From assembly GCF_000341895.1 (NCBI RefSeq), contig NC_020409.1, positions 2,850,001 to 2,882,000 on the forward strand: 32,000 nt of DNA. The letters are read 5' to 3'. The stretch is from Pseudodesulfovibrio piezophilus C1TLV30. Lineage in GTDB: Bacteria > Desulfobacterota > Desulfovibrionia > Desulfovibrionales > Desulfovibrionaceae. A program made the translations under genes and the position numbers. Positions 2,647 to 23,739 of the stretch are shown in pieces. Numbering within the stretch: position 1 is the first letter of the stretch; each line of letters starts with the position of its first letter. Under the pieces are notes generated by a model. That model searched no databases. It was given only the letters and a program-made list of their open reading frames with translations, and was not told the DNA's origin.

Positions 2647-4314
2647 TTATTGTGCGTTCAGATCGTATGCGAGGACGACGGTCTTCCGTTTGGTAAAGCC
2701 CATGGAGCCGGGGAATGTATTGACGAGCACGCAGAGTTGTTTCTTGCCGTCATTGTTCAGGTCGGCCAGAGCTATATCGGAAACCTGCCCCCTGATGCGG
2801 CGGGTTTTCCATGCCAGGTTCATGCCTACACCATCCCAGGCCAGGGAGTGAATTTCACCCTGGGAGAAGTACTTGAAGCGTTCGAAAACCTGAGAGGCGA
2901 TGGACAGGTCCTTGTTTACCAGCAATTCGTATTTGTCCTTGGAGCTTAATCTTGCTGCTATCATGCGGATGGGAACATTATAGACGCTGACTTTTTCATC
3001 AACGGTTCCCGGTCCCATGCCCTGCTGCTTGTCACTGACCTCCAGACCAACGCCTGAACTGTTGTATGTGGCGTCGTCACTGGATGACAACCGTTCCATG
3101 GACTGGCTGTAGACCTTGAGTCTGTTGAAGTCGTCAAGAACAAGATATTTGTAGCCCAGCCCGTCAGGCAGGTAGAGCATGTTGAAGATGTTGCCGAATT
3201 CCGGGGTACTGATGGTTTCTCCCTCAACAAGTTCGCCGTTCTTGTAATAGGCTTCGTAGATTTTTCCTGCGAAGATATGTCTGCGGCCGATGCGCTGGAT
3301 CACCAAGGAAGGCTTGAAGAAAGGAGGCATGCGCAAGACGCCGAGGAATTGCTTGTAGTTTTTCAGCAAATATTTGAATTTTCCGTTTTCGAATGACAAA
3401 ATGTGGGATCGGGGCGTGCCTTCAGGAGCCTTGAGCGTAGAACGGTAGTATGCTTGATAGGATGCGACAACCAGTTCCGGGATTCCATCTTTGGTAACAT
3501 CCACGGCTTCAAGTCGCATGTAGGTGGTGCTGGGAGTCATTTCCATGGTATCCAGAAATTCCAGCTTTCCCTTATTGAAACGGTAGGCGGAAATACCCTT
3601 GGCCTGGAGAATGAATATTTCATTCTTGCCGTCATTATCGGCATCGGCCACCACCATGCTGGTGGAAAAGAAGCGGAATGTCTGGCTGCGCCAACGGCCT
3701 TGGTTTTCCGTGCCGCCTTCGTAGCGGAATTGCGGGTTCAGGGTGTCGGCATGAAATTCGTCGTTGTCAGCCTGAACGATTGAGGAATTGAGGGGGCTGC
3801 GAATCTGGTCTTCAATATCCGATCCTTTGCTTGCTTCTTCTGTCGTACTGTAACCGGGACGGTTAAACACGTCTCCCATGATGGCCTTGCTTTGTTCATC
3901 AAGCCATGGGGTAATTTCATCTATTCCCATCTGGCCTGATTTTTCCCATGTCTTTCCGTCACGGGTTGTGGCCGCCATATTCAAAGTGGCTTCTTTGCCA
4001 AGGATCGAAATAGTACCGCTGATGAGGTAATCCAGCTCGGAGCTGCGAAGAATGGAGATGGCTTCCGCTTTACCGGAAGGGACTTTGAGTCCCTGAACAA
4101 GTGCATCACCAGCCGGTTCGGCATATCCCGCCCATTCCAGATCATTATTGAGGCTGGCCTGAAAAGCCTTCGGGAAGTATGAGTATTTTTTTGGTCCGTT
4201 GTAGGTAAAGGGCATCACAGCATATTTTTTAGCCTGCTGGGCCATGGCCGGACCGGCCAACAACACAACAGCCAGCAAGGCGGTCATGGTGACGGCAAGA
4301 CGTCGATTCAACAT
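2647..4314 (-). CDS. Secreted FG-GAP/VCBS-repeat beta-propeller protein with an N-terminal alpha/beta domain; function unknown
   Basis: ORF track gives 2647..4326, but its first codon is TTG. GGAGGA sits 4 nt upstream of ATG 4314, giving MLNRRLAVTMTALLAVVLLAGPAMA|QQ, a signal peptide. Calcium-type FG-GAP/VCBS loops are repeated: ADADNDGKNEIF, DVTKDGIPELVV, DLNNDGKKQLCV. Confidence 0.8.
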   Translation of the reverse strand: MLNRRLAVTMTALLAVVLLAGPAMAQQAKKYAVMPFTYNGPKKYSYFPKAFQASLNNDLEWAGYAEPAGDALVQGLKVPSGKAEAISILRSSELDYLISGTISILGKEATLNMAATTRDGKTWEKSGQMGIDEITPWLDEQSKAIMGDVFNRPGYSTTEEASKGSDIEDQIRSPLNSSIVQADNDEFHADTLNPQFRYEGGTENQGRWRSQTFRFFSTSMVVADADNDGKNEIFILQAKGISAYRFNKGKLEFLDTMEMTPSTTYMRLEAVDVTKDGIPELVVASYQAYYRSTLKAPEGTPRSHILSFENGKFKYLLKNYKQFLGVLRMPPFFKPSLVIQRIGRRHIFAGKIYEAYYKNGELVEGETISTPEFGNIFNMLYLPDGLGYKYLVLDDFNRLKVYSQSMERLSSSDDATYNSSGVGLEVSDKQQGMGPGTVDEKVSVYNVPIRMIAARLSSKDKYELLVNKDLSIASQVFERFKYFSQGEIHSLAWDGVGMNLAWKTRRIRGQVSDIALADLNNDGKKQLCVLVNTFPGSMGFTKRKTVVLAYDLNAQ

Positions 4315-5922: not shown

Positions 5923-5998
5923 GGGCGCGTAGCTCAGCTGGGAGAGCATCGGCCTTACAAGCCGAGGGTCACAGGTTCGAGCCCTGTCGCGCCTACCA
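5923..5998 (+). tRNA. tRNA-Val (anticodon TAC)
   Basis: Hand-folded cloverleaf. Acceptor GGGCGCG/CGCGCCT (G1-U72), D stem GCTC/GAGC, anticodon stem TCGGC/GCCGA with loop CTTACAA, T stem ACAGG/CCTGT with TTCGAGC loop, discriminator A, encoded CCA. Confidence 0.95.
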
Positions 5999-6041: not shown

Positions 6042-6118
<77 letters not shown>

Positions 6119-6127
6119 CTAAAGATC

Positions 6128-6165
6128 AAGGACATCAACTATTTAAGTTGGTGTCCTTTTTCTTT
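6128..6165 (+). terminator. Rho-independent terminator of the tRNA-Val/tRNA-Asp operon
   Basis: A 13-bp stem AAGGACATCAACT (6128-6140) / AGTTGGTGTCCTT (6146-6158, one G-U pair), loop ATTTA, then TTTCTTT. Confidence 0.8.
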
Positions 6166-6216
6166 GGATTATGTGTGGTCAAGGCGTGTGTAAAAAAATG
6201 TGTAAAAGGCACTTCA

Positions 6217-6256
6217 AAAGCCCCTGAAATTGAGTTTTCAGGGGCTTTCTTTTTTA
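6217..6256 (+). terminator. Second strong Rho-independent terminator
   Basis: Stem AAAGCCCCTGAAA (6217-6229) / TTTCAGGGGCTTT (6236-6248), loop TTGAGT, followed by CTTTTTTATTT. It lies inside the spurious N-terminal extension of ORF 6148..8052. Confidence 0.8.
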
Positions 6257-6480
6257 TTTCATCTATCATTTCAGGTGGATTCAGGCCTGTTTTCAAAACC
6301 TGTCAGGCACTATTTGCGGAAATCACCTTGTATTTGGCCGTCCCTGGCGTGCTTTTGACCGACATCGGACTGTATTTCACCGACACGCTGCGCGCATACC
6401 GCCATTTTCTTCAAAACCCCATGCTACGCTCTTCGCAAATACATGAAGGGCCGTCTGCTCAGTGGTCCGAAGGAGACTAT

Positions 6481-8052
6481 ATGAGCGTATATGAAGTGAA
6501 GTTGAAGCACGACCAGAGTGGTCGCATTGCGGAGAAAACAGAAACCGTCAAGGGCAAGTCCATCAAGTGGACCTACTCCTATGACAAAAAGGGCTGCCTG
6601 TTCGAGGCGCACCTGGACAACCGACTGGTCTGCCAGTGTCATTACGATAGGGACGGCAGGCGACAGCAGGATTACTTCCCCAGGACGCACGGAAGTCAGT
6701 TGCGGAACTACCACTACCGTATGGACAACCGACTGCAACAGGCCGGAAACAACGGCTACACCCATGACAAGCAGGGATTCAGGTCCATTTGGAATCATGA
6801 AGGCAAATACACGTTGTACAAGTATGCGCCGGATTACCGTCTGCTCAAAGTCGAGATACCGGACGACAAGGTCATATTCGAGTTTGCTCATGATGAAGAC
6901 GGCCAGCGTGAGTACAAGTATCGCAACGGCGAGGTTGTCGAGGCATACAAGTGGCTTGATTTCGTCCGGCTGGCTGGATTTCATGACGGCGAAGCTGGAT
7001 ATCGCTTCGCCTACGATGGTGATGAACGAACTCCCTATGCCATGCAGCGTGAGGACGGAGTCGTAGCCTACCTGTACTATGACCAGGTCGGCTCCCTGCG
7101 AGTGGTTGCCGACAAGTTAGGCAACGTGATAAAGGAGGTTCTGTATGATCCCTTCGGTGGCATCATCGAAGACTCCAATCCCGACTTGCGAATCCCCATC
7201 GGGTTTGCTGGTGGATTGCATGACCGAGACCTCGGCTTTGTCCGTTTCGGTTGGCGGGATTACGATACCTTTACCAGCCGTTGGACCGCTCCCGATCCCA
7301 TGGGGGATGCTGGTGGCGATGACGATTGGTATGGATACTGTCTTGATGATCCCGTAAACGGCAACGATCCACTTGGTCTGTTTTTGAATTGGTTGATTCA
7401 GCAAGGAACCAAGAAGGTACACAAGGTCATTAACCCCATGTCGCCTGAAAGGATCATCAAGGAAGAAGCAGATAAGGAAATCTCCCGCCTTGAAGAATAC
7501 GGAGATGACAATGCAACTGCTAAGCATCAGATTGAAAAGATGAAGCGGCTGAAAAAGAAAATGAACGAGGAAGGCCTGCCTTCAACATACGACTCCATTA
7601 AGAAGACTCTCAGGCTGAAACGTATATGGCCTACAACGAAGAGCCAATCAACGAGGACTACGGACGATGAAGAATGCACACCAGATCATAGGGGCAGGAA
7701 TTGTTTTCGGACTTGTATCACTGTGGTTTGGACTGACATCTGGAATCATTGCTGGCCTTGTTGTGTATTTGGGCCTGAGGGCTGCCACGAAGCAGGTCAA
7801 AACAGACTAGAAAAGGCCAACTGCCCATGTCGAGCAGTTGGCCGGAAAGGGTGCTCCCAACCATCTCGCTCCACCCCCGGACGATCGGATTTGCCGTGCG
7901 CGGCCATAAAAGATGAAAAAGGAGGAAAACGGATTCCGGTCCATCTGGTCGAACGGCGACATGTACCACCTGTACGAGTACGCGCCGGACTGCCGGCTGC
8001 TCAAAATGGAAGTGGAGAATCAAAATCGCGTCTTTACCTTTTGCCACGATGA
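6481..8052 (+). CDS. Short Rhs/YD-repeat core protein with a C-terminal variable (toxin-like) tip; the 3' end is uncertain and the credible coding part probably stops near 7670 after a frame change
   Basis: AAGGAG (6470-6475) lies 5 nt before ATG 6481 (MSVYEVKLKH...). YD repeats: YSYDKKG, HYDRDG, YTHDKQG, FAHDEDG, FAYDGDE, YYDQVGSLRVV. Core terminus: FGWRDYDTFTSRWTAPDP...WYGYCLDDPVNGNDPLGL (DPLGL = 7366..7380). The tip is FLNWLIQQGTKKVHKV...KMKRLKKKMNEEGLPSTYDSIKK. Beyond about 7600 the open frame becomes Cys/Arg/Trp-rich and runs through another conserved gene. Confidence 0.75.
   Translation: MSVYEVKLKHDQSGRIAEKTETVKGKSIKWTYSYDKKGCLFEAHLDNRLVCQCHYDRDGRRQQDYFPRTHGSQLRNYHYRMDNRLQQAGNNGYTHDKQGFRSIWNHEGKYTLYKYAPDYRLLKVEIPDDKVIFEFAHDEDGQREYKYRNGEVVEAYKWLDFVRLAGFHDGEAGYRFAYDGDERTPYAMQREDGVVAYLYYDQVGSLRVVADKLGNVIKEVLYDPFGGIIEDSNPDLRIPIGFAGGLHDRDLGFVRFGWRDYDTFTSRWTAPDPMGDAGGDDDWYGYCLDDPVNGNDPLGLFLNWLIQQGTKKVHKVINPMSPERIIKEEADKEISRLEEYGDDNATAKHQIEKMKRLKKKMNEEGLPSTYDSIKKTLRLKRIWPTTKSQSTRTTDDEECTPDHRGRNCFRTCITVVWTDIWNHCWPCCVFGPEGCHEAGQNRLEKANCPCRAVGRKGCSQPSRSTPGRSDLPCAAIKDEKGGKRIPVHLVERRHVPPVRVRAGLPAAQNGSGESKSRLYLLPR
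7667..7810 (+). CDS. 47-aa hydrophobic small protein, copy A (candidate immunity or accessory membrane protein)
   Basis: Hand-found; too short for the ORF track. Sequence: MKNAHQIIGAGIVFGLVSLWFGLTSGIIAGLVVYLGLRAATKQVKTD. A paralogue at 10011..10154 differs at 18 sense codons, 9 synonymous and 9 conservative aliphatic swaps. The ATG overlaps a TGA (ATGA, 7667-7670) that closes the alternative frame of the Rhs tip. Confidence 0.8.
   Translation: MKNAHQIIGAGIVFGLVSLWFGLTSGIIAGLVVYLGLRAATKQVKTD
7815..7843 (+). other. Stem-loop after small ORF copy A
   Basis: A 9-bp stem GGCCAACTG (7815-7823) / CAGTTGGCC (7835-7843) with an 11-nt loop. No U-run follows, so its role as a terminator is uncertain. 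Confidence 0.4.
7841..7929 (+). repeat. Cassette leader repeat, copy 1 (89 bp, includes the start codon and first codons of the downstream ORF)
   Basis: Aligns without gaps to 9545..9633, with 78 of 89 positions identical by hand count: GCCGGAAAGGGTGCTCCCAACCATCTCGCTCCACCCCCGGACGATCGGATTTGCCGTGCGCGGCCATAAAAGATGAAAAAGGAGGAAAA. Confidence 0.85.
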
Positions 8053-8620
8053 GCAGGGCCGGCGGGTCGCCAAGTATTTCAACGGCCAACTTGTCGAGGC
8101 CTATGGGTGGCTCGACTTCATCCGGCTCGGCGCGTTCCACGACGGGCGCATGAGATACGAGTTCGGCTACGCGGATAACGCACGCCTTCCCTCGGCCATG
8201 CGGCGCGAAGATGGGGCCGTCTTCCCCCTGCACTACGACCAGGTCGGTTCTCTGCGTGTGGTTGCCGACGCGGATGGCGACGTGATAAAGGAAATCCTGT
8301 ACGATCCCTTCGGCGGGACCATTGAGGACACCAACCCCGGTTTCCGCGTCCCCCTCGGCTTTGCGGGCGGTCTGCACGACTGGGATTTGGGCTTCGTCCG
8401 CTTCGGTTGGCGGGACTACGACACCTTCACCGGCCGGTGGACCGCGCCTGATCCCATCGGGGACAAGGGCGGCGATCCGGATTGGTATGGCTATTGCCTC
8501 GATGATCCGGTCAACGGGGTGGACCCGTTGGGGCTGGAAGGCGGATTTTGGGGAGGAATGAAAAAAAATCGGAGCTGGGTTCGGAGAATTGTGGGACAAG
8601 ACCCCTGCGGGTATAGGTGA
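7913..8620 (+). CDS. Second Rhs-core protein (last ~200 aa of the core only) with its own start codon; ends at an in-frame TGA
   Basis: MKKEEN then GFRSIWSNGDMYHLYEYAPDCRLLK...YDQVGSLRVVADADGDVIKEILYDPFGG...FGWRDYDTFTGRWTAPDP...WYGYCLDDPVNGVDPLGL (DPLGL = 8522..8536). It is collinear with residues from GFRSIW onward of the 6481 protein. Confidence 0.8.
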   Translation: MKKEENGFRSIWSNGDMYHLYEYAPDCRLLKMEVENQNRVFTFCHDEQGRRVAKYFNGQLVEAYGWLDFIRLGAFHDGRMRYEFGYADNARLPSAMRREDGAVFPLHYDQVGSLRVVADADGDVIKEILYDPFGGTIEDTNPGFRVPLGFAGGLHDWDLGFVRFGWRDYDTFTGRWTAPDPIGDKGGDPDWYGYCLDDPVNGVDPLGLEGGFWGGMKKNRSWVRRIVGQDPCGYR

Positions 8621-8956
8621 GGCGTTACCAAGGGGACGAAGGGTGCTGGAGAAGCACTGAGCAAGACGGCGGAGGCCTTTGCAACCAACAAGGATTTGCA
8701 AAAATATACGGCGATATCCTTGGTGGCAGGTGCGCTGCCCATTGTTGCAGCCGTCGGCACGGCAGCAACACCAGCCATAGCCGGTGCTGCCATGCAGCAC
8801 CCGGATAAGCTGGCTGCCGGTTCAAAGGCCATTGTAGATATAGCTTCTGGCTGGTTTGATCCGGGGCCGCCTCCGGCCTCGGTACCCGGTTATGCCGGGA
8901 GTGGTGCCAAATGGATGTACGACAAATATAAAGAAAAAAGTAGGGAGACTACATGA
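8621..8956 (+). pseudogene. In-frame continuation of the second Rhs tip beyond the TGA at 8618-8620 (Ala/Gly-rich hydrophobic toxin-like tip); either interrupted or recoded
   Basis: Same frame as 7913..8620. Hand translation after the TGA: GVTKGTKGAGEALSKTAEAFATNKDLQKYTAISLVAGALPIVAAVGTAATPAIAGAAMQHPDKLAAGSKAIVDIASGWFDPGPPPASVPGYAGSGAKWMYDKYKEKSRETT*. The ORF-track start at 8696 is TTG, and the first in-frame ATG lies well inside the hydrophobic segment (within AAMQHP). Confidence 0.5.
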
Positions 8957-9147
8957 AAATCAAGCCAGCAGAGATCGTCATGGGGATTATACTGGTCTCT
9001 ATGGGCGTGATGGGCATGGGCGAAAAGGAATTGTTTCATTACGATGTTTCTATTCCATACCCGGAAGTCTTCAGTGCCGCGTGCTTGGTTGCCGGGATTG
9101 TTTGGCTTGTTGTTCCTTGGTTTCTTACATCTCGGAAAAAGCAATAA
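8953..9147 (+). CDS. Small 2-TM membrane protein, candidate immunity protein for the preceding tip
   Basis: 64 aa: MKIKPAEIVMGIILVSMGVMGMG...AACLVAGIVWLVVPWFLTSRKKQ, with two hydrophobic helices. Its ATG overlaps the upstream stop (ATGA, 8953-8956). Confidence 0.65.
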   Translation: MKIKPAEIVMGIILVSMGVMGMGEKELFHYDVSIPYPEVFSAACLVAGIVWLVVPWFLTSRKKQ

Positions 9148-9213
9148 CAATTGCAAAGGCCTTTGACGGACTCGTTGTTGGGGCCTTTGACTTAGCTTAC
9201 TGGTTTATTTTGA

Positions 9214-9245
9214 AAGGGCTGCCTCGGCAGCCCTTGTCCGTTTTA
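9214..9245 (+). terminator. Candidate Rho-independent terminator after the immunity-like gene
   Basis: Stem AAGGGCTG (9214-9221) / CAGCCCTT (9228-9235), followed by GTCCGTTTTA. Confidence 0.5.
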
Positions 9246-9305
9246 TCCCTTGTCAGCATCGCCGAAATAAGGGCGGTTCCTGCAAATCGGTCGAATTTGG
9301 CCAAA

Positions 9306-9333
9306 CCGGACCGAAACATGGCTTTCGGTCCGG
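9306..9333. other. Perfect 11-bp stem-loop in the non-coding spacer
   Basis: CCGGACCGAAA (9306-9316) / TTTCGGTCCGG (9323-9333), loop CATGGC. Confidence 0.6.
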
Positions 9334-9363
9334 TTCCGGCAAACGTGTCAATTTCGTGGAACT

Positions 9364-9394
9364 GGTCGTTTTTGATCAAGAACGACCGTTTTTT
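9364..9394 (+). terminator. Candidate Rho-independent terminator inside the non-coding spacer
   Basis: Stem GGTCGTT (9364-9370) / AACGACC (9381-9387), followed by GTTTTTT (9388-9394). Confidence 0.55.
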
Positions 9395-9544
9395 CAATGT
9401 CCGATCCGGCGATCTGAAAGAGTTGTCAGCAAGCCCAAGAAAAGGATTCAAAGATTGTCATCAACTGTTCGGACGCCCCCGAGCTAATCGGTATCGCCAA
9501 AAACGGAAGTTGTTGGCGCGCAACGCGAGACAATCTTTCTCCTC

Positions 9545-9633
9545 GCCGGAAAGGGTACTCCTAACCATTTCGCCCCACCCCCGGACGATCAGATTTGTCG
9601 TGCGCGGCTAGAAAGAATGAAAAAGGATGAAAA
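9545..9633 (+). repeat. Cassette leader repeat, copy 2
   Basis: GCCGGAAAGGGTACTCCTAACCATTTCGCCCCACCCCCGGACGATCAGATTTGTCGTGCGCGGCTAGAAAGAATGAAAAAGGATGAAAA. 78/89 identical to 7841..7929. Contains ATG 9617. Confidence 0.85.
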
Positions 9634-9988
9634 AGAGAAGGTTGTACCAGGAAATCAGCAGAAAACGCAGGGCTCTCAAAAAAAGGGAAAAGGACTGTTG
9701 AGCTACCAATTCGTATCAGATGGGAAAGTGATTGCCGATGGGCTCACGCATCCTGTGACTCGTCGAGGATGGAGTGGAAGCGACGACTACTCGGTGCCAC
9801 TGATCATGGTCTTCGATCTGCCATTCCCCGGAGCATCAGACAGTCTGATGCTAGGTTTGGAAGTTGTTGAGCCATTTTCATTTATGGAGGAGTACAAGGG
9901 GCAAACGTCGATAGTAATCACACCAAATTATGAGCCAAAGGCTGGCAAATGTTATGACGAAGATCTGCGAATTAAGCAGTCAAAGTAG
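9617..9988 (+). CDS. Hypothetical 123-aa protein of the third cassette (Lys/Gln-rich N-terminus, then a compact domain); no recognisable family
   Basis: ORF track. It starts MKKDEK inside leader copy 2, paralleling MKKEEN of the 7913 ORF, then diverges completely. No TM segment and no YD repeats. Confidence 0.55.
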   Translation: MKKDEKEKVVPGNQQKTQGSQKKGKGLLSYQFVSDGKVIADGLTHPVTRRGWSGSDDYSVPLIMVFDLPFPGASDSLMLGLEVVEPFSFMEEYKGQTSIVITPNYEPKAGKCYDEDLRIKQSK

Positions 9989-10010
9989 ATAGTCTGTTAA
10001 GTTGCAGGCG

Positions 10011-10154
10011 ATGAAAAATGTACACCAGATCATAGGGGCAGGAGTTGTTTTCGGACTTGTATCGCTGTGGTTTGGGCTGACATCTGGAGTCGTTGTTGGC
10101 CTCGTTGCCTATCTAGGTCTGAGAGTTGCAACAAAGCAGATAAAAGCAGACTAA
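10011..10154 (+). CDS. 47-aa hydrophobic small protein, copy B
   Basis: Hand-found: MKNVHQIIGAGVVFGLVSLWFGLTSGVVVGLVAYLGLRVATKQIKAD. 38/47 aa identical to copy A (7667..7810). Half of the differing codons are synonymous. Confidence 0.8.
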   Translation: MKNVHQIIGAGVVFGLVSLWFGLTSGVVVGLVAYLGLRVATKQIKAD

Positions 10155-10158
10155 AAAA

Positions 10159-11441
10159 GGTTCATCCGGCTAAGGCATACTTCGCTTTGTGAATTTTCAT
10201 GATCCTGAGCTTGAAGCACTCGGTGTCCCGATAGCCATAGGCTTGCCGTTCTTCGATTGGGCCTGATGAGATGGGGGTATCGTAGTAAGCGAGAATGTCG
10301 AAATGGTATGCGGCAAGCGCCTTCGCCATACCCCGCAAAGGGCGTATCTCAGAGGCTTCGGCCCCGACGATCCAGTCATTGATGATCTTCTCTGCCGTCT
10401 CCTTGTCCGGCTGGGACCAGAGTTGACGCAAGTCCTCTTTCAGATAGTAGTCTGTCGCCAAAGGTTTGTTCAGCCGCAGCGCTTCATCCAAGCGTTCCTT
10501 TTCATCGCGGTTTTCATCCAGATTTTCCGGGTTTTTCAGAAGAATCCATCAAGTCCCTTTGACCGCCTTCCTTTCAAGTGGCGAGGTGAGTTCCCGGAAG
10601 AGCTGGCGACGTATCTGTGTAATCTTTTCATTCATCAGCTTGACCACATGAAACCGGTCAAACACGACAGCCGTGTTCGGTAGGTTCTCCATGACTGCGC
10701 TGATATAACCGGCGTTCATGTCCTTCGCTACAGCCGGAATTTTGGCTCTTGTCTTCTTGAGACGTTCCCGGAACGGGAGGAGTGTTTCACGGCTTTGACC
10801 TTCGCCAACAAAAACGACTGCGTCGTTTTCAAAGTCCATAACCAATGTTAAAGACTTTTGCCCCTTCCGGACACTGATTTTGTCGATGGCGATATACTTG
10901 AGCTCCCCCAGCTTGGGCTTTGAGAAGCGGTGAACCAGATATCGCTTGAAGATTGATTTGATGGTATCCCACCCAACACCGATCAGGTCAGCCACATCTT
11001 GTATTGTCATCATTTTTGCCAGGGCGAGAGCATATCACTCAAAAGCTTTCGTATACCAGTTCCTGGAGTCGGCGATCTGAATGTGATCAAGCGAATGATG
11101 CCGCAAGTGCGACATCCTACCGGTTAGACAGGAATAACCAGCCAGACAGGCTTGAAACCGATGGGCACAGTCTGAACCCATCGCTCAGCAAAGCCGTAGC
11201 GAATGATGTCTCTGGAATGGCAGCAAGGGCAACGAATCAAGTCGTCCTTGAGCTGTACTTTCAGGATAATGTTGCCTGCGATGAAATCCTGTCGAACATG
11301 GTCGTAGCCTCGCAGGCCGAACGCATGGCAGATGAAACTCGTGGACATGGCGATAACTCCCTCCGCTGGTCGGTGATGCTTCCAACGGTTGGAGGCCATG
11401 TCCTTTCATTTTGTCAAAAGTACGCTTGAACCGGATGTACC
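10159..11441 (-). mobile_element. Decayed ISL3-family insertion sequence
   Basis: Imperfect terminal inverted repeats: GGTTCATCCGGCTAAGGC (10159-10176) versus the reverse complement of 11424-11441, GGTACATCCGGTTCAAGC (14/18). AAAAGG is present on both flanks (10155-10160 / 11443-11448), so the exact ends are ambiguous by 2 nt. The interior carries a fragmented ISL3 transposase. Confidence 0.75.
10162..11399 (-). pseudogene. ISL3-family transposase, broken into at least three frames or segments
   Basis: The N-terminal zf-ISL3-like piece is 11124..11399 (...LIRCPCCHSRDIIRYGFAERWVQTVPIGFKPVWL). The DDE core is 10549..11013 (IAIDKISVRKGQKSLTLVMDFEND...AVAKDMNAGYISAV...VVFDRFHVVKLMNEKI). The C-terminal piece is 10162..10491 (...ISSGPIEERQAYGYRDTECFKLRIMKIHKAKYALAG). 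That last piece lacks the usual GxNNKIK segment. In-frame stops separate the pieces. Confidence 0.8.
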
Positions 11442-11470: not shown

Positions 11471-11797
11471 TCATACTGTTCTGATCTCTAATACTTTGAG
11501 ATGATCTCTTACTGAATCCATGCCGCGAACATATCGCTCGGTGATTTTCAGATTCTTATGTCTGAGCGTGTCCCGAATTGCGACCACAGGCACGTCATGC
11601 TTGGCGAGTCTTGAGGCTGTAAGTCCTCGGATGCCAGGACAACCAAACTTTTTCTCCTCTGCTTCGTCGCACAAGGCTTATGGTAATTTCCGGTTCTCAG
11701 TGTATGGCTTTCCTTGGTGTTGTCCTTTGGGTTGAATGAAGACCCATTTATTGACCGTTGTGGTGCGGTGCTTTTTGAGGGCTTCGGTCAACTCCAT
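11471..11797 (-). pseudogene. Tyrosine recombinase (phage-type integrase) C-terminal remnant with an in-frame stop
   Basis: Hand translation: MELTEALKKHRTTTVNKWVFIQPKGQHQGKPYTENRKLP*ALCDEAEEKKFGCPGIRGLTASRLAKHDVPVVAIRDTLRHKNLKITERYVRGMDSV.... It retains an LRH...ERY (His/Tyr) box, but the first HxxR His is replaced (PGIR). TAA at 11680-11678. No N-terminal SAM-like or core-binding domain. Confidence 0.6.
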
Positions 11798-11938: not shown

Positions 11939-12478
11939 ATGTACGGGAAACCGATGCTATCAGAGTTATTCACATCAAAAACAAGAATAAAAGTGCTGCT
12001 TAAGCTTTTTTTGAACCCAGAAGTATCTTGTTATCTTAGGGGATTAGCTGCTGAGTTTTCTCAGTCTCCCAATGCGCTTAAGTGTGAATTGGATCGGTTG
12101 AGTGAAGCGGGGTATTTGGAACGAGAGAAAAAAGGGCGAAGCGTCTACTTCAAGGCAAATAAAGCTCATCCTTTCTTCCCGGAAATCAGCTCCATTGTTC
12201 GTAAGACTTGCGGTATAGATAAATTAGTTAATGAGGTTGTTTCTAGCTTAGGAGATGTTCATGCAGTTTATATTTTGGATGACTATGCTCAAGGAAATGA
12301 TTCTGGATTGATTGATGCTTTGATTGTCGGAAACATAGATAAAAGTCGTTTAGATGAGCTTCGTAGTATTGTGGAAAGTAAAGTGGGGAGAAAGGTGCGC
12401 ACCATGGATGTAAACCCAGAAGAATTTGAAGAGAGTCGGAGTGTGTTTTTGAGTAGGCCGAATTGGAAGGTTTTATAG
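11939..12478 (+). CDS. Winged-helix (ArsR-like) transcriptional regulator with a C-terminal nucleotidyltransferase-fold-like domain
   Basis: 179 aa. N-terminal part: TRIKVLLKLFLNPEVSCYLRGLAAEFSQSPNALKCELDRLSEAGYLEREKKGRSVYF (wHTH). C-terminal part: VHAVYILDDYAQGNDSGLIDALIVGNID, resembling a degenerate minimal NTase strand-loop-strand. Confidence 0.6.
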   Translation: MYGKPMLSELFTSKTRIKVLLKLFLNPEVSCYLRGLAAEFSQSPNALKCELDRLSEAGYLEREKKGRSVYFKANKAHPFFPEISSIVRKTCGIDKLVNEVVSSLGDVHAVYILDDYAQGNDSGLIDALIVGNIDKSRLDELRSIVESKVGRKVRTMDVNPEEFEESRSVFLSRPNWKVL

Positions 12479-14316
12479 CTGTGACCAGTCTTCAGGAAAA
12501 TGCGGTGGAGCAAAAAAACTTTCGGTTACTGTGGAATATTAAAAGGATTTTTTCTTTTTTACAGAGCAAAGATAGAAAACGTTTTTTTGTGTTGACGTTT
12601 GGCGGTGTTGGGGTTGCGATTGTAGATGCCATTTCAGTCGCTCTAGTAGCGCTAATGGTTACTGTTTTAAATGATCCATCGACGATAATGCAAAGCGAAA
12701 TTGGTGTTCGATTGTGCAGTATATTCCCAGTCTTTCTCTCCTTTGAGAACAGAGCAATCATCGTGGGCGTGGGAATGCTTGCTACATTTTTTATTATTAT
12801 CAAAAATAGTTGTCGCGCTTTATTCGAATATAGAGTTGTTCGATTTGCAGCTGGGATGGATAGGCTAATAGGTAAGCATCTTTTAGGGCGTTTTTTGAAT
12901 ATGCCATACGGTTGGCATATTGAACAGAATTCGTCTGATCTCTTACTTGCAATTAGCTGGCGGTCGCATTTTGGCTCAGTGATGCTTTTATCTTTGATAA
13001 ATTTATTTGTGGATTGCGCATTTATATTATTTGTTCTGGCCTCTCTTTTTGTTGTTGCGCCCGTAATTTCTTTTTTTGTCGTCTTTTTTGTGGGGGGAGG
13101 AGGCTGTTTTATATATCGAAAAACTCGTACAGTTCTTGATCAGGAGGTTGTATTGGGTCAAGAGTATAAAATGAAAATAAGCCAAATTTCACTGAAAATA
13201 ATACAAGGTGTCAAGGATGTCATAGTTTTTTCTAAAGAGAGAGAGTTTATTAACGAATATGATGCATCTGCACAGCGGCAAGAACGAATATTAGCACGTC
13301 AACGACTCTTTACAAATATACCTATGCAAGTCTTGGAAGCATTTGGTTTTACCATGCTTGTTTTTTCTATGTTTGCATTACTTTTTATTTTTCCAATGCC
13401 TAGAGGGAAGGTTATTGGTATTGTAGTGCTTCTCGCTGTAACAGCATGGAGAGTTCTTCCTGTAGCATCACGGTTATTGGTCTCCATCTCTTCTTTAAGA
13501 AGCTCTCTCCCTTATTTGTCTAAAATATTTGATTATTTAGAGATGCAAAAAGCTAACCCATTGCTTAATCCTGCATCTGGTACTTTACTGAATTGGAAGC
13601 AAGATATCGTTTTTGACAAGGTTGATTTCCGTTATAAAAAAGGGCTCCCTAAGGCGGTGCATTCTATTGATTTTCGGATACAAAAAGGGAGCGTCTTCGG
13701 TGTTGTGGGCCAGTCTGGAGCAGGGAAGAGTACTCTTATTGATCTTCTTGTGGGATTACTTACACCGGATTCCGGAGAAATCCTGTTAGATGGGAAAAGG
13801 ATTTCTGACCTTGATTTAGGCCGGTTGCGGAATCTGTTTGGGTATGTGTCTCAGCACCCCTACATAGTTGATGCATCTTTGGCGGAGAATGTTGCTTTTG
13901 GATTGAGTGGTCGAGCTATAGATATGGAGCGGGTCAAAACTTGCTGTCAGATGGCTGCCGTTGATTTTTTAGACGAACTTCCCGATGGTTTTAATACACG
14001 AATTGGTGAGCGGGGTGTGAGGCTTTCCGGTGGGCAGCGGCAGCGAATTTCCATCGCACGGGCTTTGTATCATAAACCGGAGCTACTGATCTTTGATGAG
14101 GCTACAAGCGCCCTTGATAAAGGGACAGAGTTAGCTATTCGTGAAACGATTTATTCACTGAAAGGGAATGTTACATTACTATTAGTAGCACATCGTATGA
14201 GTACTCTTGAAGGGTGCGATTCTATTCTTTGGTTGGATAAAGGGAAAGTTCATAAAATCGGAACACCTGAGGAAATATTGCCATTGCTTGATCGTTTATC
14301 AATAAAAAAACAGTAA
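12463..14316 (+). CDS. Fused TMD-NBD ABC exporter (MsbA/PglK-like type I exporter)
   Basis: Six hydrophobic helices followed by Walker A GQSGAGKST, signature LSGGQRQR and Walker B LLIFDEATSALD. There is no in-frame ATG near the 5' end. The start is TTG 12463 or, perhaps more likely, GTG 12481 just after the upstream stop. Confidence 0.85.
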   Translation: MEGFIAVTSLQENAVEQKNFRLLWNIKRIFSFLQSKDRKRFFVLTFGGVGVAIVDAISVALVALMVTVLNDPSTIMQSEIGVRLCSIFPVFLSFENRAIIVGVGMLATFFIIIKNSCRALFEYRVVRFAAGMDRLIGKHLLGRFLNMPYGWHIEQNSSDLLLAISWRSHFGSVMLLSLINLFVDCAFILFVLASLFVVAPVISFFVVFFVGGGGCFIYRKTRTVLDQEVVLGQEYKMKISQISLKIIQGVKDVIVFSKEREFINEYDASAQRQERILARQRLFTNIPMQVLEAFGFTMLVFSMFALLFIFPMPRGKVIGIVVLLAVTAWRVLPVASRLLVSISSLRSSLPYLSKIFDYLEMQKANPLLNPASGTLLNWKQDIVFDKVDFRYKKGLPKAVHSIDFRIQKGSVFGVVGQSGAGKSTLIDLLVGLLTPDSGEILLDGKRISDLDLGRLRNLFGYVSQHPYIVDASLAENVAFGLSGRAIDMERVKTCCQMAAVDFLDELPDGFNTRIGERGVRLSGGQRQRISIARALYHKPELLIFDEATSALDKGTELAIRETIYSLKGNVTLLLVAHRMSTLEGCDSILWLDKGKVHKIGTPEEILPLLDRLSIKKQ

Positions 14317-14439
14317 TTGTATTTACATAAATATGGTGGCTAATCGAATTTACCCACATTTTTTGGGATATATTACTCACATGAGCGAGTTACGGTTTTT
14401 TGAAGAGAATCTATGATGGTTTATGGAGAAAATTAAAGA

Positions 14440-15186
14440 ATGGGATCTTTTTTTATCGATAGAAAATACCGTTTGCCACGTAAATGGTCTAATAAAGAGT
14501 TGAGGAAGATTGCTCCTTTGATCAAAGGAGAGGTCGTCAATGTTAGTGCGTGGAAAGACTCTGATAAAGAAGGTGGTTTTTATTGCGATTATTTCCGCAA
14601 TGCTTCTCACTATAGCATCACTAATTACAAGGCTGAAGCGCGAGGATTTCAGGGGAAGGAAGGCGAGATCTTTTTGGATTTGGAACAAGTACTCTCGGGA
14701 GAATTGGTACAGAGGTTTGACGTTGCTTTTAATCATACAACTCTGGAGCACACGTTCGACGTCTTTACCGCATTTTCAAATTTATGTTCACTTTCCAAGG
14801 ATATGGTCATAGTTGTGGTGCCTCATCTACAACAGATGCACAGTACATTCGGAGATTTTTGGCGATTTACACCAGAAAGTGTGGAAAAATTGTTTTTGAT
14901 GAATGGGCTGAAATTAGTTTACCTAAGCTTTAATGAGCACTGTGACTCTTCTGTGTATATTTTTGCAGTGGGGTCACGGTTTCCTGAACGATGGCGAAAG
15001 ACCATAGGCAATGATTGTAGTTATATGTCCAAATATCAACCTCATGATGGAATGGAAGCCTTTATTGGTTGTCAGGCGGTGACTAATCTTGGGTACAGAG
15101 CAGGTCTTGTGCTGAAGTCCTTCCAATCTATTTTAACAAGGTTGTATAAAAAACTTGGTACATTGATGGGAAAGAGTTTCATATAA
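14440..15186 (+). CDS. Probable class I SAM-dependent methyltransferase (divergent motif I)
   Basis: 248 aa. FDVAFNHTTLEHTFDVFTAFSNLCSLSKDMVIVVVP...FWRFTPESVEKLFLMNGL matches the post-motif-II organisation of Methyltransf_11-like enzymes. The N-terminal glycine-rich motif is not canonical. Confidence 0.5.
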   Translation: MGSFFIDRKYRLPRKWSNKELRKIAPLIKGEVVNVSAWKDSDKEGGFYCDYFRNASHYSITNYKAEARGFQGKEGEIFLDLEQVLSGELVQRFDVAFNHTTLEHTFDVFTAFSNLCSLSKDMVIVVVPHLQQMHSTFGDFWRFTPESVEKLFLMNGLKLVYLSFNEHCDSSVYIFAVGSRFPERWRKTIGNDCSYMSKYQPHDGMEAFIGCQAVTNLGYRAGLVLKSFQSILTRLYKKLGTLMGKSFI

Positions 15187-15210
15187 AAAGATGTCTCTAC
15201 GGGGTAGAAA

Positions 15211-16266
15211 TTGTTGTCTGGAGAGGAGTTAAATGTGGCGAATATTTCAGGGGATATAATCAAAGTCCGTGGGTGGACCTTTGGTAAAGAAGATCATTGT
15301 TGGCTAGCCCAAAGCTGGCCTGATGAGTATTACGAGACCCCCTATTGTTGCGGTTGTGGGGCTTCCATGACTCCTTGTTTTCAGATTTCCAATTCCGCTG
15401 GAGCCTTAGGATGTGTCACTAGTATTTGCCAAAGGTGTGGTTTTGTAAAAAAAACCAGTCAGTTGGGTGGTCAGTATATATCGCAGCACTTTGCTAAAAG
15501 ATGGCTGATCAGAAGAGATGATGTTCTGAGAGAGTCGCTATATCCCTATACCAAATTAGCACCTTTAGTTAAAGCTGGAGGCCGAGTCTTGGATCTTGGT
15601 TGTGGTATCGGGGATCGCCTGCTGCCATTTCATAACAATGGTTTTGACGTATATGGCGTTGACCCTTCAGAGCATCGTACCCAAATAGCGACAACTCGAA
15701 TGCGCAATATCCTGGTAGGGGATGGTGAAACCTACCTTGCCAACAATCATGAAAAATTTGATCTTATATATCTTTTTAATGTGCTTCAATTCTTGGTTAA
15801 TCCCTTTGCGGTTATCCAAGCGGCTCTTGAGCACGTGGTTGATGGTGGCTTTCTGTTCTTTTCAGTGAGCAATTTTCAGGAGCATAATATGGTCCAGTTG
15901 GCTCATCTGGGAGTCATCGTTTCTTATCTTAGTCCTTATTCTGTCGGGCGTTTTTTACAAACTTCGAATTTAGATAGTTGTGTTGTTGAATACAGTCATT
16001 CTCCGTTTGAATGCATTATTCGCAAAGGGAAAGGGGCGCAAGGCAATCAAAATATGCATCAAGCATCTCCTTGTCAGTTGACTAATATTGTGGATTCAGC
16101 TCGAACAAGTTCTGTGTATTCTCGATTTCCTTACATGGTTCGGAGAAGTGTTGAGTTAAATTCACCTGGAAGGACAATTGAATTTCATCGGCGCTTTATT
16201 CGAAAAATAAAGGCTCCCCTAACATTCATGTATGACACAGAATATATTCCTGTGCTTCTGAAGTAG
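15211..16266 (+). CDS. Class I SAM-dependent methyltransferase with an N-terminal Cys-rich (zinc-ribbon-like) segment
   Basis: Motif I RVLDLGCGIGDRL, then FDVYGVDPS and FDLIYLFNVLQFLVNP. N-terminal cysteines at YCCGCG...CQRCG. The ORF-track start is TTG. GTG 15235 has a better SD (GGAGAGGAG). Confidence 0.75.
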   Translation: MLSGEELNVANISGDIIKVRGWTFGKEDHCWLAQSWPDEYYETPYCCGCGASMTPCFQISNSAGALGCVTSICQRCGFVKKTSQLGGQYISQHFAKRWLIRRDDVLRESLYPYTKLAPLVKAGGRVLDLGCGIGDRLLPFHNNGFDVYGVDPSEHRTQIATTRMRNILVGDGETYLANNHEKFDLIYLFNVLQFLVNPFAVIQAALEHVVDGGFLFFSVSNFQEHNMVQLAHLGVIVSYLSPYSVGRFLQTSNLDSCVVEYSHSPFECIIRKGKGAQGNQNMHQASPCQLTNIVDSARTSSVYSRFPYMVRRSVELNSPGRTIEFHRRFIRKIKAPLTFMYDTEYIPVLLK

Positions 16267-16275
16267 GTGTTGGTT

Positions 16276-17589: not shown

Positions 17590-17934
17590 TGATCGTAATT
17601 TGAGGATTTAACCAATTCATTTAGTTCGGGTGAGAATGGTTTTAGCCTGTGACTCTTAAATTGCATACACTACTTTGTGTGTACTTCTGATGAGATCATG
17701 TAACATTCATTTGATTTGGGAGTTTCTGTGAAAATATTCAGGATCACAGTGTTCGGCTAAAAATGAAAAGTTGCAATCAAAGACTTTTACATCACAATCA
17801 AAGCTTTATCGCTTCTTTCTGGTTGTGACTTTTATGTTGATAACGGTATGTCAGTCTTATTTCTCTTTATATTTTGGTCTGTTAGATTGGAGTAAGTCTT
17901 TTGGGCCGTTAAAACAACGGGTTTTGGAGGGATT

Positions 17935-21951: not shown

Positions 21952-21965
21952 TCTTCAGGAGTCTT

Positions 21966-22700
21966 ATGCGTTCGTTTTTACAAGAGATTATACTACAGTT
22001 GAAAACCAAATTCTATTATCATGGCATCGAAAAAGCTCATGCTAGAAATGCGATGGAGCATCCTGAAGAATATAATAATATCCGGCGTATTTTACAGGCA
22101 TATCATAAGGGGGGGGGGCTTCAGCATCTTTTTCAAGAATATAAGTTGTATCATTTGAAACAACTGTTGTGGTCTTGCAGACCAAGCTCAATACTGGAAT
22201 TGGGCTCAGGTTCAACTACCCCGGTCTTTGCTGAGTATGTGCGTAGTGCTGGTAAAGAGTGCGTTATGACCTCTGTTGATGAAAGTGAAAAATGGTTAGA
22301 GCATGCAAAAAAAATAGCTTGGGAAAACTCCGCTTTAGAAAGCGCTGCCGAATTTATAGTAGCTCCTTCCATTTGTGAAGATATGCGACAACCTCCCGAA
22401 GTTAAATACGATTTTACTGCTAAGAAAGAATATGATTTTGTTTTTATTGATGGCCCCTCTCTTCTTGTGAATGGAGAAAAAAATAAGACAGCTGTTAATA
22501 CTAACATCTTTGATCTACTCCAAACTCAGTCACCTGCAACGATTGTTGTGGATATACGGGAGAGTACTGTGAATGCTCTTAAGTCGAGACTCTATAATGA
22601 ATATGATGTAATTGTTTCTGACGTTATTTTAAGGAAGGCAAATCGACTTGGGTATGAATACTTCAGTATATTCCGTCTTAAGAGTACCGGAATAAATTAA
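21966..22700 (+). CDS. Class I SAM-dependent methyltransferase-like protein (O-methyltransferase / Methyltransf_24-like)
   Basis: SILELGSGSTTPVFA (motif I), VMTSVDES and YDFVFIDGP. The SD CAGGAG precedes ATG 21966. Confidence 0.6.
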   Translation: MRSFLQEIILQLKTKFYYHGIEKAHARNAMEHPEEYNNIRRILQAYHKGGGLQHLFQEYKLYHLKQLLWSCRPSSILELGSGSTTPVFAEYVRSAGKECVMTSVDESEKWLEHAKKIAWENSALESAAEFIVAPSICEDMRQPPEVKYDFTAKKEYDFVFIDGPSLLVNGEKNKTAVNTNIFDLLQTQSPATIVVDIRESTVNALKSRLYNEYDVIVSDVILRKANRLGYEYFSIFRLKSTGIN

Positions 22701-23635: not shown

Positions 23636-23739
23636 TCATTCTTTTAGATGGCATGTAGGGGGATACCCTATAGTTGATGAATGACTATAGAAGAATCCTC
23701 ATCTCTAGTTATGCAAATCTTGGTCTATTTGGAGATAAT

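What the first reader, a model, noticed from the sequence alone, without database searches (positions are those of the whole stretch)
7841..9633. 89-bp conserved leader that includes the start codon, repeated in front of two unrelated cassettes
Seen: 7841..7929 and 9545..9633 align without gaps, with 78/89 positions identical by hand count. Each ends with ATGAAAAAGGA(G/T)GAAAA, so both downstream ORFs begin MKK(E/D)E. Homology stops abruptly a few codons into each ORF. One continues as an Rhs core at GFRSIW and the other as an unrelated 123-aa protein. Sequence upstream of each copy is unrelated. No good SD precedes the ATG, although AAGGAGG lies just after it in copy 1.

Inference: this is a modular cassette boundary. 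It may be a shared 5' UTR and translation-initiation or regulatory element, or a recombination joint used to shuffle cassettes. I do not recognise it as any described element.
Basis: seen in the sequence. Interest (0 to 1): 0.65.

Follow-up and report, generated by a model that had tools for sequence, protein, structure and literature searches.

The report
Spacer remnant in Rhs toxin array
The 89-base repeat is real, but it is a leftover piece of a longer non-coding spacer that separates toxin and immunity gene cassettes in a decaying Rhs island, and nothing shows that it works as a shared translation leader.

Summary
The repeat is confirmed: 7841-7929 and 9545-9633 match at 78/89 positions with no gaps. 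It is not a self-contained 89-bp element. Copy 2 lies inside a ~400-bp non-coding module (9276-9677) that is 90% identical to one in a Desulfovibrionaceae MAG (L001). A 220-bp core of that module (9360-9578) also sits between xis/int and an Rhs-fragment gene in three relatives. Copy 1 is an 89-bp stump.

Both downstream "genes" are 5'-truncated remnants:
- An Rhs fragment that has lost its own 5'UTR, Shine-Dalgarno (SD) site and ~130 codons. It is joined to the stump at a 5-nt GAAAA microhomology, and its toxin part is frameshifted.
- The last ~98 codons of a 177-aa membrane-anchored beta-sandwich protein.

The shared ATG has no SD. The peptide it encodes differs from its L001 counterpart only by nonsynonymous changes. 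There is no RNA-structure signal and no Rfam match. More distant relatives that keep the same Rhs cassettes lack the sequence.

Best reading: an inter-cassette spacer and homology tract in an orphan Rhs toxin/immunity array next to tRNA-Asp, with junctions made by illegitimate recombination. The "cassette boundary / recombination joint" idea is partly right. The "translation leader" idea is unsupported. Interest is low.

The parts
7841..7929 (+). Copy 1: an 89-bp stump of the inter-cassette module, equivalent to 9545-9633. Its 3' 77 nt are 97% identical to L001 5710-5786.
9545..9633 (+). Copy 2 of the 89-mer, lying inside the complete module.
9276..9677 (+). Complete 'B-type' inter-cassette module, ~400 bp and non-coding. 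90% identical to L001 5428-5830.
9360..9578 (+). 220-bp core shared with the 'A-type' copies in L001, L007 and L008, where it lies between xis/int and the Rhs-fragment gene. All A-type copies end at ...CCCCAC. The core holds blocks invariant in all five long copies: 9430-9474 (45 nt) and 9512-9539 (28 nt).
9363..9394 (+). Terminator-like palindromic hairpin plus T-run at the 5' edge of the shared core.
9306..9333 (+). Hairpin CCGGACCGAAA...TTTCGGTCCGG in the 5' part of the B-type module.
9214..9235 (+). Intrinsic-terminator-like hairpin after the 64-aa gene. The same hairpin (93%) lies at the end of contig L007, after a different CT/immunity pair.
7815..7843 (.). 10-bp-stem hairpin directly after the 47-aa gene. 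Its 3' arm overlaps the first 3 nt of copy 1, so it marks that copy's 5' junction.
6481..7670 (+). Rhs fragment 1 (starts MSVYE; SD GAAGGAG at 6469-6475; conserved 5'UTR from ~6240) plus toxin CT1. The stop codon appears to be lost, because the frame stays open to 8052.
7667..7810 (+). 47-aa membrane protein, the presumed immunity partner of CT1. A paralogue lies at 10011-10154.
7913..8956 (+). Rhs fragment 2. Homology to the Rhs core starts at 7922-7930 (ENGFRSIW), 90-92% identical to L001/L008. The toxin part CT2 is disrupted: a +1 shift at the A8 run 8561-8568, an in-frame TGA at 8618-8620, and a return to frame after that.
8953..9147 (+). 64-aa membrane protein, the presumed immunity partner of CT2. 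Its start overlaps the CT2 stop.
9617..9988 (+). 123-aa ORF: 21-23 codons from the module fused to the last ~98 codons (from 9686) of a 177-aa family made of a TM helix plus a beta-sandwich. It is a truncated remnant.
10011..10154 (+). Second copy of the 47-aa membrane protein gene.
10160..11440 (-). ISL3-family insertion sequence with its transposase split into three ORFs (coordinates approximate). It is followed by a tyrosine-integrase remnant at 11471-11797.
6042..6118 (+). tRNA-Asp, the left border of the island. tRNA-Val lies at 5923-5998.

Best explanation
The 89-bp repeat is the overlap between two unequal copies of one lineage-specific, non-coding inter-cassette module. The module belongs to a tRNA-linked island that carries short Rhs C-terminal fragments, their toxin tips (CT) and small immunity genes, in a narrow clade of Pseudodesulfovibrio-like Desulfovibrionaceae.

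The complete module (9276-9677) opens with hairpins and a terminator that close the preceding toxin-immunity cassette. It then has a 220-bp core with two invariant blocks, and a ~100-bp tail that happens to contain an ATG.

Copy 1 is a stump of that module left downstream of the first cassette (Rhs fragment 1, CT1, 47-aa gene). A microhomology-mediated deletion at GAAAA joined it to the middle of the next Rhs-fragment gene. That deletion removed the gene's own 5'UTR, SD and ~130 codons. Copy 2's tail is likewise joined to the last ~98 codons of a 177-aa membrane-anchored protein gene.

So the shared 'start codon' is an incidental ORF start in spacer DNA, placed in front of two gene remnants.

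What the module does (inferred): it terminates the upstream cassette and may promote transcription of the next one. Because copies flank Rhs-CT-immunity modules as direct repeats, it also gives homologous recombination a tract for gaining, losing or swapping cassettes.

Shown here: the repeat, the longer unit, its distribution, the truncations, the frameshift, the microhomology, and the absence of coding or structural constraint. Inferred: the order of events, any promoter activity, and any role in recombination.
For: - Longer unit: window 9276-9677 matches L001 5428-5830 at 90% over 403 bp. The 220-bp core also occurs in L001 3184-3403, L007 and L008, always between xis/int and an Rhs-fragment gene.
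- Direct repeats flank an Rhs-CT-immunity module in the window (copy 1 and copy 2) and in L001 (3157-3403 and 5485-5731).
- Copy 1's 3' junction: the leader reads ...GGAGGAAAA|AGAG and the L001 Rhs reads ...GACGAAAAC|GGGTTCCGG, so they share GAAAA. The native Rhs start MSVYE/MSVFE has a good SD and a conserved 5'UTR, and fragment 2 lacks both.
- CT2 is frameshifted compared with the intact homologue P0035.
- The 123-aa ORF keeps only residues ~79-176 of a 177-aa family. It has lost the TM helix and three of the eight beta-strands.
- All 6 codon differences in the leader peptide between the window and L001 are nonsynonymous. The near-identical contig L002 differs by one further nonsynonymous change, G12R.
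- No RNA fold signal, no covariation, no Rfam match.
- None of 157 Rhs homologues starts with MKKEE, and the genome's own annotation starts at MEVENQ.
- The sequence is absent from L009-L015, which keep homologous Rhs cassettes. One genome hit, two metagenome hits, and no viral or plasmid hits.
- The module is about as diverged between genomes (90-94%) as the neighbouring Rhs coding sequence (90-92%), so it shows no special conservation.
Against: - Both window junctions leave the downstream remnant in frame with the ATG, which has roughly a 1/9 chance of happening by accident.
- In L001 the AAGGAGG inside the leader sits 8 nt before another ATG, which opens a 123-aa ORF in frame with a downstream TM protein.
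- Blocks of 45 and 28 nt are invariant in five copies that are otherwise 90-94% identical, which hints at some constraint such as a promoter or operator.
- Copy 1 is 97% identical to L001's copy over 77 nt, while the neighbouring DNA is ~90%. This could mean recent transfer or selection.
- No transcript data exist.
- The rest of the 3.65-Mb source genome could not be scanned, so the total copy number is unknown.
Confidence: 0.6

Rival explanations
1. Portable expression leader. The module carries a promoter, a 5'UTR and a start codon that re-activate 5'-truncated toxin or immunity fragments captured in the array, by in-frame fusion.
For: Both window fusions are in frame. In L001 an SD-like AAGGAGG followed by an ATG opens an ORF into the next gene. 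Invariant blocks lie upstream. Rhs orphans are known to be expressed from internal promoters and start sites (PMC7043789).
Against: No SD lies before the shared ATG. The peptide evolves only by nonsynonymous changes. No sigma-70-like promoter was found on the + strand. The fused toxin is frameshifted, and the fused 177-aa family member lacks its TM helix and three strands. Only three copies of the leader part are known, and each has a different junction point.
Confidence: 0.13
2. Site-specific recombination site. The module would act like an integron attC/attI site, or like the repetitive intergenic sequences of rAID-1 arrays, and the island's tyrosine recombinase would use it to insert or excise Rhs-CT-immunity cassettes.
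For: In L001, L007 and L008 the core lies next to xis/int. Copies flank cassettes as direct repeats. All three A-type copies end at the same base...CCCCAC. The rAID-1 precedent is described in bioRxiv 10.1101/471110.
Against: The junction points differ: 9578, 9633 and 9677 on the 3' side, and 9276, 9360 and 9545 on the 5' side. Copy 1's junction shows microhomology, which is typical of illegitimate recombination. There are no RYYYAAC/GTTRRRY motifs and no stable hairpin. The integrase is a generic tRNA-site type, scoring 26 bits against the integron-integrase cut-off of 265. No empty site or circular form is known.
Confidence: 0.1
3. Remnant 5' end of a once intact gene. The module tail would be the native upstream region and first ~21 codons of a real gene (for example a full-length rhs or another toxin gene), and large internal deletions left only the start fused to distal fragments.
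For: The tail contains an ATG plus an open 21-codon stretch that the window and L001 share. Deletion junctions are evident.
Against: There is no purifying selection on the 21 codons and no SD. None of 157 Rhs homologues, and none of the 18 homologues of the 123-aa ORF, starts with this peptide. All of the best 120 Rhs relatives are short fragments.
Confidence: 0.1
4. Structured cis-regulatory RNA or small RNA, such as a riboswitch, a leader or an antisense regulator.
For: Sequence is conserved across three copies, and a few G-U-compatible changes occur in short stems.
Against: The MFE is no better than shuffled sequence on either strand, with z-scores from -0.29 to +1.35. The covariation term is +0.12, with one compensatory pair among 19. 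Rfam gives no match at E <= 5.
Confidence: 0.03

Closest known systems
Orphan Rhs / CdiA-CT toxin-immunity cassette arrays (Poole et al. 2011, PMC3150448; Koskiniemi et al. 2014, PMC3967940)
   Same: Both have tandem 5'-truncated Rhs core fragments, each ending in DPxGL and followed by a different toxin tip and a small immunity gene. Repeated sequence at the cassette borders provides homology for rearrangement. A more distant array here (L003) shows the classical 76-nt core remnants in front of successive CTs.
   Different: Here an additional non-coding 220-400-bp module is repeated between cassettes. No full-length rhs gene is present in the window or among the best 120 homologues. The array sits beside a tRNA gene with integrase remnants.
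rAID-1 recombinase-associated orphan-immunity arrays of Bacteroidales (Ross et al. 2019, bioRxiv 10.1101/471110)
   Same: Both are arrays of orphan immunity genes and toxin fragments linked to a tyrosine recombinase, with repetitive intergenic sequences.
   Different: The phylum differs. GC is ~50%, not <=41%. Only two copies are present, and they have ragged ends. In the window the recombinase is only a remnant, and in relatives it is a tRNA-site integrase, not shown to be XerD-like.
Integron attC/attI cassette sites
   Same: Both are repeated sequences at the borders of promoterless or truncated cassettes, next to a tyrosine recombinase.
   Different: There are no RYYYAAC/GTTRRRY core sites, no attC-like hairpin and no integron integrase, and the junction positions vary.
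Internal P2 promoter and start sites of Salmonella rhs orphans (PMC7043789)
   Same: Both involve a conserved sequence upstream of different Rhs toxin tips that could allow a truncated product to be expressed.
   Different: P2 lies inside the rhs core coding sequence, 89 nt upstream of the PxxxxDPxGL motif. The sequence here is non-coding spacer fused ~590 bp upstream of that motif, and no promoter or start activity has been shown.

Membership tests
Rhs orphan toxin/immunity cassette array | A C-terminal YD-shell/core segment ending in the PxxxxDPxGL motif, followed by a variable toxin tip. | tested here: met
   Both fragments hit PF25023 and end ...DPVNG(N/V)DPLGL before unrelated tips. Fragment 2 scores 43.7 bits, below Pfam's 50-bit cut-off, because it is shorter.
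Rhs orphan toxin/immunity cassette array | A small immunity ORF directly downstream of, or overlapping, the end of the toxin gene. | tested here: inconclusive
   A 47-aa and a 64-aa membrane-protein ORF follow CT1 and CT2 with overlapping stop/start codons. Neither matches any family, and function was not tested.
Rhs orphan toxin/immunity cassette array | A full-length 'main' rhs gene upstream with which the orphans can recombine. | tested here: not met
   No long Rhs ORF exists in the window. The best 120 homologues are all 117-361 aa. The rest of the genome was not available.
Integron (attC/attI plus IntI) | RYYYAAC ... GTTRRRY core sites bounding an imperfect palindrome. | tested here: not met
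   Neither motif occurs in 7780-7960 or 9200-9700, and no suitable pair occurs in the island. The fold is no better than shuffled sequence.
Integron (attC/attI plus IntI) | An integron-type integrase adjacent to the array. | tested here: not met
   The L001 integrase scores 26 bits against TIGR02249, whose cut-off is 265. The window holds only a 67-aa integrase remnant.
rAID-1 | A 5' XerD-like recombinase at least 44% identical to BF9343_RS08045. | not tested
   The reference sequence was not at hand. The window has only an integrase remnant, at the far end of the array and on the opposite strand.
rAID-1 | A co-directional array with GC <= 41% and repetitive intergenic motifs between most ORFs. 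| tested here: not met
   The array's GC is 46-62%. The repeat occurs at only two of about six intergenic positions.
Known structured RNA family (Rfam 15) | A match to a covariance model. | tested here: not met
   No match in 7700-9700 involves the repeat at E <= 5.
Insertion sequence end / MITE | Terminal inverted repeats with target-site duplication, and multiple dispersed copies. | tested here: not met
   No inverted repeat bounds either copy. There is one stretch in 185,579 species genomes, two metagenome contigs, and no viral or plasmid hits.

The most novel reading that the evidence does not exclude
The 220-400-bp module could be the docking site of a cassette platform that has not been described. 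In this reading, tRNA-integrating islands of Desulfovibrionaceae gain and shed self-contained 'short Rhs, toxin, immunity' modules by recombination at this sequence. That would leave it as direct repeats around each module (as in the window and in L001) and place its ATG/SD-bearing tail in front of whatever lies downstream. It would be an integron-like system for polymorphic-toxin cassettes outside Bacteroidales.
Probability: 0.12. Interest if true: 0.6.

Novelty: new member of a known kind. Interest (0 to 1): 0.25.

Why it matters
Taken at face value, a conserved leader that supplies the start codon to unrelated cassettes would be an unusual expression device. The evidence points to something more ordinary. 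Polymorphic-toxin orphan arrays are mosaics, and spacer DNA, core remnants and truncated genes get stitched together in them by homologous and illegitimate recombination.

The practical value is for annotation:
- ORFs 7913-8620 and 9617-9988 should be treated as gene remnants.
- The 634-aa ORF 6148-8052 should be treated as a chimeric read-through.

The wider context may deserve its own look. Short Rhs-fragment genes with their own SD lie beside tRNA genes and integrases across Pseudodesulfovibrio, and no full-length rhs appears among the close relatives.

Tried and rejected
- **RNA structure.** Single-sequence folds on both strands, an alignment fold of three copies and Rfam all gave no signal.
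- **tRNA-derived att site.** Local alignment of tRNA-Ala, tRNA-Asp and tRNA-Val to all element copies found nothing. No second copy of the tRNA 3' ends occurs in the loci.
- **Integron attC motifs.** Absent.
- **Sigma-70 promoter scan.** Nothing on the + strand of the module. I also looked by eye for a sigma-54-type GG-N10-GC arrangement and did not see one.
- **Six-frame peptide search.** I concatenated the six-frame translation of the module into one query to fish for mis-called ORFs in the 5.8-billion-protein set. It found nothing, probably because 8000 low-complexity word candidates saturated the search. That search was wasted.
- **Exact-pattern scans.** The leader 22-mer gave 1 genome hit, 0 metagenome hits and 0 viral hits. 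The core 23-mer gave 2 metagenome hits and 0 viral hits. blastn of the module against plasmids found nothing.
- **Context look-ups of Rhs homologues.** I hoped for further leader copies in P0060, P0021, P0030, P0027, P0022 and P0039 and found none. P0003 and P0035 were not on record.
- **Similarity between A-type and B-type flanks.** Not above shuffled controls.
- **177-aa family.** Structure prediction and fold search gave a TM helix plus a beta-sandwich. The best PDB match is 3nkg, of unknown function, so its immunity role remains an inference from context.

Full report
**1. The observation.**
Windows 7841-7929 and 9545-9633 align without gaps at 78/89 identical positions. The window self-blastn gives E = 3e-25. 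Two sub-patterns of the repeat each match exactly twice, against none in 100 shuffles. Each copy ends in ATGAAAAAGGA(G/T)GAAAA and opens an ORF. One is 7913-8620 (MKKEEN, then GFRSIW... of an Rhs core). The other is 9617-9988 (123 aa). The upstream flanks are unrelated. The description is therefore correct.

**2. The surroundings.**
tRNA-Val (5923-5998) and tRNA-Asp (6042-6118) are followed by a ~5.3-kb array, in this order:
- Rhs fragment 1 plus toxin tip CT1
- a 47-aa membrane-protein gene (7667-7810)
- a hairpin (7815-7843)
- copy 1
- Rhs fragment 2 plus CT2
- a 64-aa membrane-protein gene (8953-9147)
- a terminator-like hairpin (9214-9235)
- more hairpins
- copy 2
- the 123-aa ORF
- a second copy of the 47-aa gene (10011-10154, 86% nt identity to the first)
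- a decayed ISL3 element
- a tyrosine-integrase remnant (11471-11797, minus strand)

Beyond ~12 kb the GC content falls from ~50% to ~40%, in a polysaccharide/ABC-transporter cluster. This layout is that of an orphan Rhs toxin/immunity array beside a tRNA gene.

**3. The repeat is part of a larger unit.**
A scan of 185,579 species genomes with a 22-mer from the repeat found one locus, L001, a Desulfovibrionaceae MAG. blastn shows window 9276-9677 matching L001 5428-5830 at 90% over 403 bp. I call this the complete 'B-type' module.

A 220-bp core (equivalent to 9360-9578) occurs again in L001 at 3184-3403. It also occurs in two metagenome contigs, L007 and L008, found with a 23-mer from the core. 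In these 'A-type' copies the core always lies between a tRNA-Ala-linked integrase/excisionase pair and an Rhs-fragment gene that starts MSVFE(M/L)RLKHD. All three copies end at the same base...CCCCAC.

Copy 1 of the window holds the last 34 nt of the core plus 55 nt of the B-type tail. The 89 bp is therefore the overlap of two unequal pieces, not a discrete element.

Pairwise identity among the five long copies is 89.5-97.7%. That is about the same as for the neighbouring Rhs coding DNA between the same genomes (90-92%). Two blocks are invariant in all five copies, 9430-9474 and 9512-9539, and both lie upstream of the 89-mer.

**4. What lies downstream of each copy is a gene remnant.**

(a) Rhs fragment 2 is 90-92% identical to the L001/L008 Rhs gene, but only from ENGFRSIW onward (7922-8535). 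The intact version starts ~130 codons earlier, has a GAAGGAG Shine-Dalgarno site and has a conserved 5'UTR. Window fragment 1 (ATG at 6481), L001, L012 and L013 all show this.

At the junction the leader reads ...GGAGGAAAA|AGAG and the Rhs gene reads ...GACGAAAAC|GGGTTCC. Copy 1 reads GGAGGAAAACGGATTCC, which is a 5-nt GAAAA microhomology join.

The toxin tip of fragment 2 is also broken. Compared with the intact homologue P0035, it shifts frame at the A8 run 8561-8568, meets an in-frame TGA at 8618-8620, and then returns to frame.

(b) The 123-aa ORF has 17 homologues of ~151-193 aa. Homology starts at 9686, around codon 24-27. The family model (pLDDT 82) is an N-terminal membrane helix followed by an eight-strand beta-sandwich. 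The window copy keeps only residues ~79-176, so it has lost the helix and three strands.

Members of this family sit in arrays of small ORFs downstream of Rhs fragments in other genomes. That suggests orphan immunity genes, although no family or structure match confirms it.

**5. Is the ATG a real, shared translation start?**
- No SD precedes it.
- Between the window and L001, the 21 codons carried by the module differ at six codons, and all six changes are nonsynonymous. The near-identical contig L002 adds one more nonsynonymous change, G12R.
- In L001 the ATG-ORF runs out of frame into a membrane-protein gene that has its own SD.
- None of 157 Rhs homologues begins with MKKEE. The source genome's own annotation (P0019) starts fragment 2 at MEVENQ.
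- RNA folding is no better than shuffled sequence (z from -0.29 to +1.35). Three-copy alignment folding gives a covariation term of +0.12. Rfam gives no match.
- No sigma-70-like promoter is predicted on the + strand.

Some points go the other way:
- Both window fusions are in frame, which has about a 1/9 chance of being accidental.
- In L001, AAGGAGG inside the leader precedes an alternative ATG that opens an ORF into the next gene.
- The invariant blocks hint at some constraint.

**6. Distribution.**
The leader part is known in only three places: window copy 1, window copy 2, and L001. The core is known in five.

Loci that keep homologous Rhs cassettes lack the sequence. These are L009, L010, L011 (from the same metagenome as the near-identical contig L002), L012 (Paucidesulfovibrio gracilis, where tRNA genes are followed directly by the Rhs 5'UTR, as in the window), L013, L014 and L015.

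No viral or plasmid copies were found. It is not a dispersed high-copy repeat.

**7. Mechanism.**
I read the module as an inter-cassette spacer. Its hairpins and terminator close the preceding toxin-immunity pair. The conserved core may carry a promoter or operator for what follows, but that is unproven.

Copies flank an Rhs-CT-immunity module as direct repeats, both in the window (copy 1 and copy 2, 1704 bp apart) and in L001 (247-nt repeats, 2328 bp apart). The module is therefore a ready homology tract for cassette gain, loss and swapping.

L007 carries the window's 9207-9235 terminator after a different CT/immunity pair. This fits a picture of conserved flanks around a variable toxin-immunity core.

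The ragged ends point to illegitimate and homologous recombination rather than a site-specific crossover. Those ends are at 9276, 9360 and 9545 on the 5' side, and at 9578, 9633 and 9677 on the 3' side. The GAAAA microhomology points the same way.

Integron features are absent, and no tRNA-derived att sequence is present in the module.

**8. Comparison with known systems.**
The locus works like the orphan Rhs/CdiA-CT arrays (PMC3150448, PMC3967940). A more distant array here, L003, shows the classical 76-nt core remnants before successive toxin tips.

The repeated non-coding module recalls the 'repetitive intergenic sequences reminiscent of integrons' of Bacteroidales rAID-1 arrays (bioRxiv 10.1101/471110). 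However, the GC criterion and the repeat density are not met, and the recombinase criterion was not tested.

Expression of truncated Rhs products from internal promoters is known in Salmonella (PMC7043789). That keeps the leader idea alive as a minority reading.

**9. Verdict.**
The feature is real, but it is an ordinary product of mosaic evolution in a decaying toxin/immunity array. The 'shared translation-initiation leader' idea is unsupported. The feature is a new member of a known kind, and interest is low (0.25).

The most novel reading still open is an integron-like docking site for short-Rhs cassettes in tRNA-linked islands. I put its probability at about 0.12.

Noticed in passing
window 7665-7816 and 10009-10160: A 47-aa membrane-protein gene is duplicated at 86% nt identity, with 9 conservative amino-acid changes. 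Homology starts 2 nt before the ATG and ends 6 nt after the stop. Each copy is followed by a different hairpin.
   Followed up: partly
window 6148-8052: This 634-aa ORF is called as one gene in the near-identical JGI contig L002, but it is chimeric. It covers Rhs fragment 1 and CT1, then stays open through the 47-aa gene (in another frame), through leader copy 1, and into fragment 2. A short frame-0 ORF (7602-7670) ends in an ATGA overlap with the 47-aa gene's start, which suggests CT1 has lost its stop or suffered a frameshift.
   Followed up: partly
window 8561-8625: The toxin tip of Rhs fragment 2 is out of frame between an A8 homopolymer (8561-8568) and ~8621, with an in-frame TGA at 8618-8620. 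The alternative frame reads IGAGFGELWDKTPAGIGEA, which matches the intact homologue P0035. This is either a pseudogene or two homopolymer-type sequence errors.
   Followed up: yes
window 6240-6500; L012 9761-10010; L001 3500-3690: The short Rhs-fragment genes (~430 aa, starting MSV(Y/F)E) have their own strong SD and a ~240-nt conserved 5'UTR. They lie directly beside tRNA genes in several Desulfovibrionaceae, with or without an integrase. All of the best 120 homologues are 117-361 aa, and no full-length Rhs appears.
   Followed up: partly
window ~10160-11440 and 11471-11797: An ISL3-family element with ~28-nt inverted ends has its transposase split into three ORFs. It is inserted just after the second 47-aa gene. 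A tyrosine-integrase remnant follows on the minus strand, with its C-terminal end facing the array.
   Followed up: partly
window ~12000-31600: GC drops from ~50% to ~40% across a cluster of ABC-transporter, glycosyltransferase-like and other + strand genes. A weak look-alike of the tRNA-Asp 3' end (72% over 25 nt) lies at 31575-31599. It could mark the far end of an older island at the same tRNA.
   Followed up: no
window 9686-9988; proteins P0002-P0017: A ~177-aa protein family with no Pfam or NCBIfam match is predicted as a TM helix plus an eight-strand beta-sandwich. Its best PDB match is 3nkg, of unknown function. Members occur in arrays of small ORFs downstream of Rhs fragments in marine and other metagenomes.
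   Followed up: partly
L001 1946-3067; L008 12270-12744: L001 carries an IS630-family insertion between xis/int and the module that L007 and L008 lack. The L008 Rhs tip has an HGG...GS.GC motif like YkuD (L,D-transpeptidase-type) effectors, and homologue P0124 carries PF03734.
   Followed up: no
L005 1-7017; L003 6558-8554: Distant arrays that hold the 177-aa family also have boundary repeats. L005 has three copies each of 100-280-nt segments at ~1.6-2.1-kb spacing. L003 has 76-77-nt Rhs-core remnants before successive toxin tips.
   Followed up: no
window 6120-6254: The weak Rfam Phe/His-leader hits here (far below gathering score) are only the hairpin plus T-run terminator after tRNA-Asp.
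   Followed up: yes
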